Source: Escherichia coli
GTDB taxonomy: Bacteria > Pseudomonadota > Gammaproteobacteria > Enterobacterales > Enterobacteriaceae
Reading direction: 5' to 3' (one strand)
DNA: 64,000 bases
NCBI RefSeq assembly: GCF_044647545.1
Contig: NZ_CP172818.1
Position numbers: made by a program. Of the stretch, positions 9,001 through 12,000 are shown one piece after another. Each line of letters begins with the position of its first letter. The first letter of the stretch is position 1.

Positions 9001-12000
9001 GGCAGATGGAACTCTGTTTCCAGTACGTTGACGACCTGCATCATGCCTTTGCAGATGTCCTTATCAATAACGCCTGCCTCGCAAAGCAGGTTGAGTCTGG
9101 TTTCCATTTCAGATGCCTTTCATTTAATAACTGGGTTCCTGTTCCCCACTCACCACTCGTTGTTGATGGGCAAGCAGGGCCTGTTTATCAACCACTGCAC
9201 GCAGCAGTTGTTGCATTGGGTAATCATCGACTCGCGTCAGGACCACGGCTTCGGTGGCCTGTAAAAATCGCGGATCGTCTGTGAGCGGCGTCGCTTCTAA
9301 TCCCAGCATGGTCAGTTCGTTTTCCGCCACCACGTTCCAGATCACCGCATCGACATCGCCTTTAACAATGCGTTGTAAACTCTCGTGATAAGAGAGATCG
9401 ACACGTTCCACATCACTATCGCCAAAAAAGACATCGGTCATGATTTTCTGATCCGCCGAACGGTTATCCAGCCCCACGCGCTTCACGTTTGCGGACTCGC
9501 CTTTACGGCAAATCAACTGGTGCTCGCCAACGTAGGTGTGCGGCCCCAACTCCAGCGCGAGGCATAAGCCTTTTTGCGTGAGATAACTTTCCGCCGCCAG
9601 TCGGGAAACAACCGCCATGTCATACACGCCGTTAAGTAAACACTCCACGCGAATATCCGCGCCGCGCATATGCGCATAGTAAAAAGGAATACCATCAAAC
9701 TGAGCTTTCAATCCGCTCGCCAGGCCTTCGTACAAACGGGTATAGGGCAAGGGCATCGCGCACACCACATTGTTGATATCTACATGAGTCAGCAATGCTT
9801 TGTTATCCATCTCGACCAGATAACTGCCATTGCGCCCACGGCGTTCAATCCGTATCGCTCCGCTTGATTCCAGCGTTTTCAACGCGGCCTGCGTCAGGCC
9901 AACCGATGAACGGCATTCAGTTGCCAGCTCATCTATGGTTTTCAGTCGATTACCGCACTTTTCACCCAACAAATAACGGGCCAGTGTCGTGATAACGACG
10001 CCTTCTTTTTTGATAAACGTTCGACGCATAATATATTTTCAATAAAATGAATGTTTATATCTTCATTAAAATGAAGATAAGTGGCAACTGTGAGATGTGG
10101 AAACGGCGAGGTGCTTCACATTTTTTCGGATTATTGCAAATGAGGATAAAAAAACCGGGTTTCCCCGGTTTTTGGCATTAATGTTAAATTACGGCTTCGC
10201 CACAAAACCAATCGCTTCGTACACCGCTTTCAGCGTACGAGAAGCGTGTGCACTGGCTTTTTCCGCGCCGTCTTTCATCACCTGTTGCAGGAAGGCTTCA
10301 TCGTTGCGGAAACGGTGATAACGTTCCTGCAATTCAGTCAGCATACCGGAAACGGCATCAGCCACTTCGCCTTTGAGATGACCATACATCTTGCCTTCGA
10401 ACTGTTTTTCCAGTTCCGGGATGCTCTGGCCCGTTACCGCAGAAAGGATATCCAGCAGGTTGGAAACGCCCGCTTTGTTCTGCACATCGTAGCGAACTAC
10501 CGGCGGCTCGTCGGAGTCAGTGACCGCACGTTTGATTTTCTTCACTACCGATTTCGGATCTTCCAGCAGGCCGATAACGTTATTGCGGTTATCGTCAGAC
10601 TTGGACATCTTTTTGGTCGGCTCCAGCAGCGACATTACGCGCGCGCCGGATTTCGGAATAAACGGCTCCGGCACTTTAAAGATCTCGCCATACAGCGCGT
10701 TGAAACGCTGGGCGATATCGCGGCTCAGTTCCAGGTGCTGTTTCTGGTCTTCACCCACCGGTACCAGATTAGTTTGATACAGCAGGATGTCCGCAGCCAT
10801 CAGCACCGGATAGTCAAACAGACCAGCATTGATGTTCTCGGCATAACGCGCAGATTTATCTTTAAACTGCGTCATGCGGCTCAGTTCGCCGAAGTAGGTA
10901 TAGCAGTTCAGTGCCCAGCCTAACTGTGCATGTTCCGGCACGTGGGACTGAACAAAAATGGTGCTTTTCTCAGGATCGATACCACAAGCCAGATACAAGG
11001 CCAGCGTATCCAGCGTCGCTTTACGCAGCTTCTGTGCATCCTGGCGCACGGTGATCGCGTGTTGGTCAACGATACAGTAAATGCAATGGTAGTCATCCTG
11101 CATGTTTACCCACTGACGCAGCGCACCCATGTAGTTACCAATGGTCAATTCACCTGAGGGCTGTGCGCCACTAAAAACGATGGGCTTAGTCATTTTTCGA
11201 TTCCTGATTTTCGCTATGCGGAAGCCCTAATGCGGGCAGAAGGTCATTTATAGACTGATAAATTACATCAGGCTGGCTGAGATCGATAGCCTCGCCGTAG
11301 TTATATCCGTAGGTTAAGCCAACTGATGGGCAACCTGCCGCTTTTGCTGCCTGAATATCATTGCGTGAGTCGCCAACAAACAGCATCTGTTGTGGAGCAA
11401 TTCCCATCCGCTCAGCCACCAGTAACAGCGGGTCCGGATGCGGTTTTTTGTTTTGCACATCATCACCACCAATTACCACGCTGAAGTATTTGGCGATATC
11501 TAAGGCTTCGAGCAGCGGCGCGACGAACGGCGTCGGTTTGTTGGTGACCAGACCTAGCGGCAGGCCTTTAGCCTGCAATGCGCCCAGCGTATCGGCAACG
11601 TGCGGGAACAAAAACGTCCCCTCTTCGGCAACCTCGCCATAGTAGCGATCGAACAGTTTACGCAGAATACGTACTTGTTCTTCTGCCGGAATGTCGTCAT
11701 CAACGGGCGGTTTACCCATTGTTTTACGCAGAGTCGCACGTTCCTGACGCGCCCAGGTCAATGCGCGCTCCATCAGAACATCTGCGCCGTTACCAATCCA
11801 GGTTATAACGCGTTCTTCACCTGCGACGGGCAACTCCAGCGCATACAGCGCCATATCTACTGCGGTAGCCAAGCCAGGAGCACTGTCCACCAGCGTACCG
11901 TCGAGATCAAAAGCGACGCCGCGAATATCTTCAAACTTATTCATGACTTACCTTTGCCAGTTCACTGCGCATTTCATCAATGACTTTTTTGTAGTCTGGC

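What the first reader, a model, noticed from the sequence alone, without database searches (positions are those of the whole stretch)
10030..10146. AT-rich yhfZ upstream region with short direct and inverted repeats
Seen: immediately upstream of the yhfZ start there are two copies of AAAATGAA (10044-10051, 10068-10075) and a near-palindrome cttcattaaaatgaag (10061-10076), followed by the trpS terminator hairpin. Inference: candidate operator for the unknown regulator of the yhf cluster, possibly YhfZ itself.
Basis: seen in the sequence. Interest (0 to 1): 0.2.

Follow-up and report, generated by a model that had tools for sequence, protein, structure and literature searches.

The report
Conserved operator sites of yhf cluster
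The short repeats upstream of yhfZ belong to a three-copy palindromic DNA motif (TTCA-N6-TGAA with AT-rich flanks) that stays in place in front of this unstudied gene cluster from E. coli to Vibrio, so it is very probably the binding site of the cluster's own regulator, YhfZ, although no binding experiment exists.

Summary
The window holds a perfect palindrome, TATCTTCATT-aa-AATGAAGATA (10058-10079, O1). Next to it, 24 bp away, is a degenerate copy (10032-10057, O2).

Six E. coli alleles and 80 yhfZ loci from other species show that the conserved unit is TTAT(C/A)TTCA-N6-TGAAGATAA. The AAAATGAA 8-mer is a half-site core plus variable spacer.

Sites lie 39 and 15 nt upstream of the yhfZ ATG in most Enterobacteriaceae. 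Xenorhabdus, Serratia and Providencia keep the distal site, Photorhabdus keeps the proximal one, and Vibrio has one site at -18.

A third site (8690-8715, O3) sits between yhfY and yhfX. A matrix trained only on distant genera ranks exactly these three sites first in the 64-kb window (32, 29 and 25 bits; next best 7.5).

A CRP-like TGTGA-N6-TCnC (10105-10120) and a TTG of a -35-like hexamer are also fixed in position.

Best reading: a YhfZ-repressed, probably CRP-activated yhfZY promoter, with a further operator before yhfX. Binding, the transcription start and the sign of regulation are inferred, not shown.

I found no publication describing this operator. It is a new member of a known kind and of modest interest.

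The parts
10056..10081 (-). O1, the distal operator-like palindrome. On the - strand it reads cTTATCTTCA-ttttaa-TGAAGATAta, with a perfect core at 10058-10079. Its centre is 39 nt upstream of the yhfZ ATG. It overlaps the predicted spacer and -10 of the promoter.
   Evidence: (I3), (34.8 bits; 32.0 bits with a matrix trained on distant genera only). The arms are invariant in 6 E. coli alleles while the 6-bp centre varies. The site is present at -37 to -39 in most loci.
10032..10057 (-). O2, the proximal degenerate copy. On the - strand it reads taaaCATTCA-ttttat-TGAAAATAta. Its centre is 15 nt upstream of the ATG and 24 bp from the O1 centre. It lies over the predicted transcription start and the short 5' UTR.
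   Evidence: D1, I1; 30.8 bits; 25.4 bits. The -15 position is kept in Enterobacteriaceae and Photorhabdus.
8690..8715 (-). O3, a perfect 10+6+10 palindrome TAAATATTCA-N6-TGAATATTTA in the yhfY-yhfX intergenic region, about 41 nt upstream of the yhfX ATG.
   Evidence: It was not in the training set, yet scores 33.3 bits and 29.2 bits. It is found at about +1300 to +1435 in almost all non-Vibrio loci, and it is a perfect inverted repeat.
10105..10120 (-). CRP-like site TGTGAagcaccTCGCC, matching TGTGA-N6-TCACA at 8 of 10 positions. Its centre is about 83 nt upstream of the ATG, which is -61.5 from the predicted transcription start.
   Evidence: GTGA and TC invariant in 15 genera; the best match is centred 81-83 nt upstream of the ATG in 76 of 80 loci; 1 match in the window against 0.12 expected. 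Assignment to CRP is an inference.
10082..10087 (-). Predicted -35 hexamer TTGCCA (TTGCGC in K-12).
   Evidence: TTG is invariant in 15 genera. The promoter role is inferred. The consensus scan did not report this promoter because the -10 is weak.
10059..10064 (-). Predicted weak -10 hexamer GAAGAT, 17 nt after TTGCCA. It lies inside the right arm of O1. The predicted transcription start is near 10051-10052.
   Evidence: Read directly from the sequence. The geometry fits a CRP-like centre at -61.5. No experimental start site was found.
10150..10173 (-). trpS intrinsic terminator, AAAAACCGGG-gaaa-CCCGGTTTTT plus a T-run.
   Evidence: I4.: -15.1 kcal/mol, z -3.3. Invariant in the E. coli alleles.
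9124..10029 (-). yhfZ, encoding a 301-aa winged-HTH (HTH_41) plus YhfZ_C (periplasmic-binding-protein fold) regulator. It is the proposed binder of O1, O2 and O3.
2620..9107 (-). yhfY, yhfX, yhfW, php, yhfU, yhfT and yhfS: the genes presumed to be controlled.
   Evidence: Synteny holds across 80 loci.

Best explanation
The trpS-yhfZ intergenic region is the regulated promoter of the yhf cluster. It carries two adjacent operators, and a third lies in front of yhfX. Each is a dyad TTAT(C/A)TTCA-N6(A/T-rich)-TGAAGATAA. The TTCA and TGAA cores are 10 bp apart centre to centre. That is the geometry expected for the two recognition helices of a dimeric winged-helix protein sitting in successive major grooves.

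The most likely binder is YhfZ, the only DNA-binding protein encoded in the cluster. On this reading, YhfZ without its unknown ligand occupies O1 and O2. O1 is centred at about -17.5 and covers the -35/-10 spacer and the weak -10. O2 is centred at about +6.5. Together they would exclude RNA polymerase, so YhfZ would repress yhfZY, including itself. It would act likewise at O3 on yhfX-yhfW-php-yhfU-yhfT-yhfS. O3 could work either by blocking a second promoter or as an auxiliary operator or roadblock. Ligand binding to the C-terminal periplasmic-binding-protein-like domain would release the repressor. A conserved CRP-like site at about -61.5 would then make expression depend on cAMP-CRP.

Shown here: the sequence features, their conservation, their fixed positions and their specificity to the cluster. 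Inferred: who binds, the transcription start, the sign of regulation (repression), the role of CRP and the role of O3.
For: (1) Anatomy. There is a perfect 10+2+10 palindrome and a 24-bp-spaced degenerate copy.

(2) Within E. coli, the 8-bp arms are invariant while the 6-bp centre differs at up to 4 of 6 positions between alleles.

(3) Across species, an exact TTCA-N6-TGAA lies within 45 nt of the ATG in 76 of 80 loci, a one-mismatch version in two more, and the remaining two are exceptions described in the report. Positions are fixed at -39 and -15. Information content is 1.6 bits per column in the O1 arms, against 0.3-0.8 in unconstrained intergenic columns.

(4) Specificity. In 685,692 bases of 80 loci, hits of at least 18 bits occur only at the yhfZ promoter and in the yhfY-yhfX gap. 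The exception is three 21-bit hits inside php of Vibrio. In the window, only three sites reach 10 bits, against 0.02 expected.

(5) Independent validation. A matrix built from 15 sites of Photorhabdus, Serratia, Xenorhabdus, Providencia, Vibrio and Photobacterium ranks O1, O3 and O2 first (32.0, 29.2 and 25.4 bits). The next best site scores 7.5. O3 was never in any training set.

(6) The site travels with the cluster. It is kept where trpS is not the neighbour. In Vibrio, where the genes abut, there is one site and no internal gap. In Pluralibacter gergoviae, with yhfY-yhfZ order, it lies before yhfY.

(7) YhfZ is the only HTH protein of the cluster. Its recognition-helix and wing residues (S42 V43 G44 Q47 L50 E54; G65 R66 N67 G68) are invariant from E. 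coli to Vibrio, in parallel with the invariant TTCA/TGAA core. The model shows a winged HTH plus a periplasmic-binding-protein fold.

(8) Promoter context. A TTG of a -35-like hexamer is invariant. A TGTGA-N6-TCnC is centred 81-83 nt upstream of the ATG in 76 of 80 loci.
Against: No protein-DNA binding, expression or transcription-start data exist for this locus. Nine papers mention yhfZ and none concerns regulation. The supplements searched for start sites gave nothing.

The promoter is weak by consensus: the -10 GAAGAT matches 3 of 6 positions, and the scan tool did not call it. The operator positions relative to +1 are therefore model-dependent.

No convincing -35 or conserved upstream block precedes O3, so its mode of action is open.

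The 24-bp spacing between O1 and O2 is about 2.3 helical turns, so the two sites are not on the same face of the helix.

Only about 750 kb was scanned, so sites elsewhere in the genome cannot be excluded. That leaves open a regulator encoded elsewhere.

O1 and O2 of close relatives were in the first training set. This is mitigated.
Confidence: 0.7

Rival explanations
1. The dyads are real operators, but YhfZ acts at them as an activator or a dual regulator rather than a simple repressor. It could, for example, remodel a poorly spaced promoter from a site between -35 and -10, or recruit polymerase at O3.
For: Fold search places YhfZ's domain layout nearest to full-length LysR-type regulators, which are mostly activators using two adjacent sites. 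The -10 is weak, and O3 has no recognisable -35.
Against: O1 and O2 cover the predicted -28 to +20 region. That is the usual position for repressors. A separate conserved CRP-like activator site is present at the class I position. YhfZ is not a LysR-family member by Pfam and lacks the long linker helix.
Confidence: 0.2
2. The sites are bound by a host-encoded regulator common to Enterobacterales and Vibrionaceae, not by YhfZ.
For: Binding has not been tested. The motif is AT-rich, like the sites of several nucleoid proteins. Only about 750 kb was scanned, so a wider regulon cannot be excluded.
Against: The cluster is patchily distributed; it is absent from O157:H7, for example. Yet the site always accompanies it, and it does not occur in the 4-kb flanks. 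From my own knowledge, the motif does not resemble the consensus of CRP, FNR, Fur, ArcA, Lrp, IHF, Fis, ArgR, NagC or Cra. ArgR and Cra half-sites have the opposite orientation. The YhfZ DNA-reading residues are invariant together with the core.
Confidence: 0.1
3. The palindromes act as nucleic-acid hairpins, either an RNA structure in a 5' leader or intercistronic region or a DNA cruciform, rather than as protein sites.
For: O1 can fold as a 9-bp RNA hairpin of -8.3 kcal/mol (z -6.4). The pairing percentage is slightly above shuffles (88.8 against 86.6%, reached by 17 of 500 shuffles).
Against: The two variable arm positions are unpaired in 12 of 33 and 16 of 33 distinct O1 sequences. O2 keeps only the 4-bp core complementary: pair 6-21 is Watson-Crick in 3 of 29, and the other outer pairs (1-26 to 5-22) in 14-18 of 29. 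A 4-bp A/U-rich stem is not stable. The invariant TTG directly upstream and the fixed CRP-like site indicate that O1 lies inside the promoter and is not transcribed. No Rfam family matches.
Confidence: 0.05
4. The repeats are a chance product of an AT-rich intergenic region, or of a recent 24-bp tandem duplication without function.
For: The 9-mer direct repeat alone is not beyond chance. The region is AT-rich.
Against: The motif and its positions are conserved across 80 loci from different species, down to 45% YhfZ identity. No matrix hits appear in shuffles.
Confidence: 0.01

Closest known systems
Local, autoregulated repressors annotated as GntR family, with dyad operators over their own promoters (FadR, PdhR, NanR and FrlR, recalled from knowledge)
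   Same: A winged-HTH regulator gene sits at the head of a catabolic-type cluster, with a palindromic operator at its own promoter. RefSeq names YhfZ 'GntR family transcriptional regulator'.
   Different: Pfam assigns the HTH to HTH_41 (PF14502), not GntR (PF00392). The effector domain has a periplasmic-binding-protein fold (YhfZ_C), not FCD or UTRA. The operator core TTCA-N6-TGAA lacks the GT...AC core that I recall for many GntR operators.
LysR-type transcriptional regulators (OxyR, CbnR, BenM)
   Same: They share an N-terminal winged HTH plus a type-2 periplasmic-binding-protein-like effector domain. They are the best non-self full-length fold matches. Both use two adjacent interrupted dyads at the promoter.
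   Different: There is no Pfam HTH_1 or LysR_substrate match. No long linker helix appears in the model, only helix 76-80. The sites lie over the core promoter and +1 rather than at -65 and -35. The gene is co-directional with its targets, not divergent.
lac promoter architecture (CRP at -61.5, a main operator at the start site and auxiliary operators)
   Same: The predicted layout is a class I CRP site, a weak core promoter, operators over and next to +1, and one more operator at a distance (O3, about 1.37 kb downstream; in Xenorhabdus an extra site 104 bp upstream).
   Different: The regulator family is different. All positions here rest on a predicted transcription start. Looping is conjecture.
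ArgR ARG boxes (tandem 18-bp palindromes containing TGAAT/ATTCA)
   Same: Both are AT-rich tandem palindromes with TGAA/TTCA words near a promoter.
   Different: The orientation is reversed, ATTCA-N6-TGAAT here against TGAAT-N4-ATTCA. The spacing also differs, 24 bp against 21 bp. Reading the flanks shows no ARG-box register. This resemblance was recalled from memory and rejected.

Membership tests
Dyad-symmetric transcription-factor operator | Inverted repeat with half-site cores about one helical turn apart | tested here: met
   TTCA and TGAA are 10 bp apart centre to centre. There are perfect palindromes at O1 and O3.
Dyad-symmetric transcription-factor operator | Conserved sequence and position in orthologous regulatory regions, above the intergenic background | tested here: met
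   An exact core lies within 45 nt of the ATG in 76 of 80 loci, with a one-mismatch version in two more. Positions are fixed at -39 and -15. Information content is 1.6 against 0.3-0.8 bits.
Dyad-symmetric transcription-factor operator | Overlap with the core promoter or transcription start (for a repressor) | tested here: inconclusive
   The promoter is only predicted: TTGCCA, 17 nt, GAAGAT. The consensus scan did not report it. No start-site data were found.
Dyad-symmetric transcription-factor operator | Specific binding by the cognate protein | not testable with these tools
   This needs EMSA, footprinting, or ChIP or DAP-seq.
GntR family (YhfZ) | Pfam GntR winged-HTH domain (PF00392) | tested here: not met
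   Pfam gives HTH_41 (PF14502, E 7e-19) and YhfZ_C (PF14503). There is no GntR hit at E up to 0.01. RefSeq nevertheless names it GntR family.
GntR family (YhfZ) | Winged helix-turn-helix fold at the N-terminus | tested here: met
   The model has three helices plus a beta-hairpin wing at residues 8-74, with block pLDDT values of about 88-94.
LysR-type regulators (YhfZ) | HTH_1 plus LysR_substrate domains and a long linker helix | tested here: not met
   There are no such Pfam hits and only a short helix 76-80. Similarity exists at fold level only, at E about 1e-9 and TM 0.35-0.47.
CRP-binding site, class I | Match to TGTGA-N6-TCACA | tested here: inconclusive
   The window matches 8 of 10 positions, with a perfect left half and TCGCC on the right. 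The element is conserved in 76 of 80 loci, and in Vibrio the right half is the perfect one.
CRP-binding site, class I | Centre at -61.5 from the transcription start, and binding by cAMP-CRP | not testable with these tools
   The distance fits only the predicted start. No experimental start site or CRP binding data were found.
Intrinsic terminator (trpS) | G+C-rich hairpin followed by a U-tract just after the stop codon | tested here: met
   10150-10173, at -15.1 kcal/mol, followed by UUUUUUU.
Structured RNA element | Compensatory base changes, or a match to a known family | tested here: inconclusive
   Covariation is barely above shuffles and the variable pairs are often unpaired. There is no Rfam match at E up to 0.1.

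The most novel reading that the evidence does not exclude
YhfZ and the small PRD-only protein YhfY, always encoded next to each other, form a split regulator. In this reading the phosphorylation state of YhfY's PRD domain is set by the phosphotransferase system or by the cluster's own YhfT/YhfU transporter. That state, together with a ligand bound in YhfZ's periplasmic-binding-protein-like domain, decides whether YhfZ occupies three operators that cooperate by looping over 1.4 kb. This would be a way of coupling PRD signalling to a DNA-binding repressor that I do not know to have been described.
Probability: 0.12. Interest if true: 0.55.

Novelty: new member of a known kind. Interest (0 to 1): 0.33.

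Why it matters
The yhfZYXW-php-yhfUTS cluster is part of the uncharacterised fraction of the E. coli genome. Neither its substrate nor its regulation is known, and I found no paper addressing either one.

A sharply defined operator consensus is now available. There are three mapped sites, at MG1655 3512371-3512396, 3512347-3512372 and 3511005-3511030. There is also a predicted CRP-dependent promoter. Together these make the system directly testable.

YhfZ binding can be assayed on defined oligonucleotides. Candidate ligands can be screened by release of YhfZ from the operator. Reporter fusions can be used to search for the inducing condition.

This is a routine kind of comparative-genomic regulon inference, not a new principle.

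Tried and rejected
Transcription-start evidence. I searched the supplements of three E. coli transcriptome papers for yhfZ or yhfX, or for coordinates 35109xx-35124xx. Nothing was held or found.

Literature on YhfZ, the other yhf genes, HTH_41, PF14502, PF14503 and 2OZZ. Nothing concerns regulation.

Consensus promoter scan. It reported only - strand hits whose -10 abuts the ATG (10057-10030), which cannot serve the annotated start. The + strand hits point away from any gene. I rejected these as the yhfZ promoter.

RNA hairpin or leader. The fold is possible, but covariation is not convincing and no Rfam family matches.

ArgR, Fur, Cra, KdgR, MetR and NagC resemblance. I considered these from memory. 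I rejected them on half-site orientation or spacing after reading the sequence.

Sigma-54 promoter at GTGGCAAC. It has no TTGC partner and is on the wrong strand, so I rejected it.

The 12-nt repeat AAATGAGGATAA at 10138-10149 (D2). It is only a half-site and is not conserved outside Escherichia.

The 44-aa ORF at 10047-10181 on the + strand. I treated it as a mechanical ORF.

Vibrio hits at about +1468. They lie inside the php coding sequence and score 21 bits, so they are likely chance.
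Full report
**Observation**

The window is E. coli. It is 100% identical over the query to strain FDAARGOS_497 and is not K-12.

yhfZ is 9124-10029 on the - strand and trpS is 10189-11193 on the - strand. The finding therefore covers the trpS-yhfZ intergenic region, read against the direction of transcription.

- The 'near-palindrome' is a perfect 10+2+10 inverted repeat, TATCTTCATT-aa-AATGAAGATA, at 10058-10079 (I3).
- The two AAAATGAA words belong to a 20-nt direct repeat, 90% identical and 24 nt apart (D1).
- The trpS terminator is at 10150-10173 (I4).

The short word repeat alone is not beyond chance. The palindrome is. Perfect inverted repeats of this size number 10 in the window against 0.6 expected. 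Several of the others look like G+C-rich hairpins flanked by A/T runs, although I did not check them. The only AT-rich ones are this site and a related site at 8690-8715.

**What is conserved within E. coli**

I aligned six E. coli alleles of the intergenic region. The 8-bp outer arms TATCTTCA and TGAAGATA never change. The six central bases read TTTTAA, TTTTTA or AATTCC.

The copy next to the ATG likewise keeps TTCA-N6-TGAA with a variable centre.

**What is conserved across species**

A scan of one genome per species, using an alignment of YhfZ orthologues, returned 80 loci. They come from Escherichia, Citrobacter, Klebsiella, Pluralibacter, Trabulsiella, Enterobacter, Buttiauxella, Cedecea, Chimaeribacter, Superficieibacter, Lelliottia, Atlantibacter, Photorhabdus, Serratia, Xenorhabdus, Providencia, Vibrio and Photobacterium.

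An exact TTCA-N6-TGAA lies within 45 nt of the yhfZ start codon in 76 of the 80. Two more (E. albertii and one Vibrio) carry it with one mismatch at the same position. Where the sites lie:

| Group | Site positions relative to the yhfZ ATG |
|---|---|
| Most Enterobacteriaceae | -39 and -15 |
| Xenorhabdus, Serratia, Providencia | -37 or -38 only; most Xenorhabdus also have a weaker site at -142 |
| Photorhabdus | -15 only |
| Vibrio, Photobacterium | one site at -16 to -19 |

The two exceptions are informative:
- In Pluralibacter gergoviae the gene order is yhfY-yhfZ. A TTCAatttagTGAA plus a TTGTGA-N6-TCGCA lie upstream of yhfY instead.
- In X. szentirmaii the region looks degenerate, and the position of the start codon reads ATA.

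In a 15-genus alignment, information content is 1.6 bits per column in the O1 arms and 1.3 in the O2 arms. It is 0.3-0.8 in unconstrained stretches.

**A third site, and specificity**

I built a symmetrised 26-column matrix from the promoter-proximal sites. It gives only three hits of at least 10 bits in the 64-kb window:
- O1, 10056-10081: 34.8 bits.
- O2, 10032-10057: 30.8 bits.
- A site not used in training, 8690-8715: 33.3 bits. This site, O3, lies in the yhfY-yhfX gap and is a perfect TAAATATTCA-N6-TGAATATTTA.

Shuffled windows give 0.02 hits at 10 bits and none at 18 bits.

In 685,692 bases of the 80 loci, hits of at least 18 bits fall only at the yhfZ promoter positions and in the yhfY-yhfX gap. 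The exception is three 21-bit hits inside the Vibrio php coding sequence.

In Vibrio the order is yhfZ-yhfY-php-yhfU-yhfT-yhfX and yhfY abuts php, so there is no yhfY-yhfX gap and no O3-type site.

To remove circularity I rebuilt the matrix from 15 sites of distant genera only, where YhfZ is 45-70% identical. It ranks O1, O3 and O2 first in the window at 32.0, 29.2 and 25.4 bits. The fourth best site scores 7.5.

**Who binds**

The cluster encodes the following:
- YhfZ, with HTH_41 and YhfZ_C domains.
- YhfY, with a weak PRD match. RefSeq calls it 'PRD domain-containing protein'.
- YhfX, a PLP enzyme.
- YhfW, a phosphopentomutase-like protein.
- Php, a phosphotriesterase-family protein.
- YhfU, a DUF2620 protein.
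- YhfT, a membrane protein.
- YhfS, an aminotransferase-like protein.

YhfZ is the only protein with a DNA-binding domain. Its model (pLDDT 89.5) shows a winged helix-turn-helix at residues 8-74 followed by a periplasmic-binding-protein fold.

The best non-self structural matches are full-length LysR-type regulators and solute-binding proteins. By Pfam, however, YhfZ belongs to neither the LysR nor the GntR domain families.

The predicted recognition helix and wing tip are invariant from E. coli to Vibrio (S42 V43 G44 Q47 L50 E54; G65 R66 N67 G68). This matches the invariant TTCA/TGAA core.

The cluster is patchy: O157:H7 lacks it entirely. trpS is not found in the 4 kb held upstream of yhfZ in Photorhabdus, Xenorhabdus, Serratia, Providencia, Vibrio and Photobacterium, nor in a few Enterobacteriaceae loci. 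The motif nevertheless always accompanies the cluster. That co-inheritance is the main argument for YhfZ over a host factor.

**Promoter model (inferred)**

Two more blocks are fixed. One is a TTG that begins a -35-like hexamer, TTGCCA at 10087-10082. The other is TGTGA-N6-TCnC at 10120-10105.

The best match to the CRP consensus TGTGA-N6-TCACA is centred 81-83 nt upstream of the ATG in 76 of 80 loci, usually with 8 of 10 matches. In Vibrio it is the TCACA half that is perfect.

Taking TTGCCA, a 17-nt spacer and GAAGAT (10064-10059) gives a start near 10051-10052. This places the elements as follows:

| Element | Predicted centre |
|---|---|
| CRP-like site | about -61.5 (the classical class I position) |
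| O1 | about -17.5 |
| O2 | about +6.5 |

This layout is coherent for a CRP-activated promoter repressed by occupancy of O1 and O2.

It rests on a weak -10 that the consensus scan did not call. No experimental start site could be found.

O3 has no conserved -35 or activator site upstream, because the yhfY stop codon is only about 25-35 nt away. O3 may mark a second promoter. RegulonDB-derived tables list php-yhfSTUWX as a separate operon. Alternatively O3 may be an auxiliary or roadblock operator.

**Rivals**

*Hairpin.* O1 could fold in RNA at -8.3 kcal/mol. However, the two arm positions that vary are unpaired in 12 and 16 of 33 distinct O1 sequences. O2 keeps only the 4-bp core complementary. 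Covariation is barely above shuffles. No Rfam family matches.

*Host global regulator.* This cannot be excluded without a binding test or a whole-genome scan. The motif does not resemble any consensus I know, and the site is confined to the cluster in the 750 kb examined.

*Activation rather than repression by YhfZ.* This remains possible.

*Chance.* This is excluded by the conservation.

**Comparison with known systems, and novelty**

This is a conventional kind of element: a dyad operator of a cluster-encoded regulator, with tandem and distant copies and a CRP-type activator site. The closest analogues are listed under Closest known systems.

I found no description of it. Nine papers mention yhfZ and none concerns its DNA target. 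Curated regulon databases could not be queried.

I rate it a new member of a known kind. It is useful mainly because it gives a concrete experimental handle on an orphan E. coli cluster.

Noticed in passing
window 2137-2619; L006; L087: This strain has cysG-yhfL directly followed by yhfS, so the frlABCDR operon is absent. O157:H7 has frlB-frlC-frlD-frlR (frlD marked as a pseudogene) directly next to trpS and lacks the whole yhf cluster. The two neighbouring islands are thus gained or lost independently.
   Followed up: partly
L001 (K-12-like) and L003 (strain D6), between the trpS stop codon and the terminator; equivalent to window about 10176-10188: Two different insertions of about 110-130 bp sit between the trpS stop and its terminator. 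The K-12 one contains REP-like palindromes and is called a BIME in PMC2965389. The D6 one is a different G+C-rich palindromic element. The window strain has neither.
   Followed up: partly
window 10030-10125 compared with L001-L005: The yhfZ promoter exists in E. coli as two diverged haplotypes plus mosaics. Examples are TTGCCA...TTTTAA against TTGCGC...AATTCC. The differences cluster in the spacer and non-core positions.
   Followed up: partly
Most Xenorhabdus loci among L056-L081, about 142 nt upstream of yhfZ: These loci carry an extra, weaker site, TATATCTTCAAAATATTGATAATATT, 104 bp upstream of the main operator and beyond the CRP-like site. At roughly ten helical turns, this spacing is suggestive of looping.
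   Followed up: partly
L044 3440-3600 (Pluralibacter gergoviae): The gene order is yhfY-yhfZ-yhfX. The CRP-like site and a TTCAatttagTGAA lie before yhfY, and an O3-type site lies between yhfZ and yhfX.
   Followed up: partly
L055 3780-4020 (Xenorhabdus szentirmaii): The promoter-proximal operator and CRP-like site are not recognisable, and the position of the start codon reads ATA. yhfZ may be decaying there, while O3 is kept.
   Followed up: no
window 10138-10149: TTATCCTCATTT on the - strand, right after the terminator T-run, looks like a lone operator half-site (D2). It has no partner half and is not conserved outside Escherichia.
   Followed up: partly
window 8745-9107 (yhfY): YhfY is a 120-aa protein whose only Pfam signal is a PRD domain just below the curated threshold, at 21.4 against 23 bits. 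It is encoded directly next to yhfZ in all 80 loci. A PRD-only protein beside a regulator is unusual.
   Followed up: no
window 2331-2356: This is the fourth-ranked matrix hit, at 7.5 bits: TTATATTCAtataatcaATGAATAT at the yhfL start codon, at the far end of the cluster. The spacing is wrong (N9), so it is probably chance.
   Followed up: no
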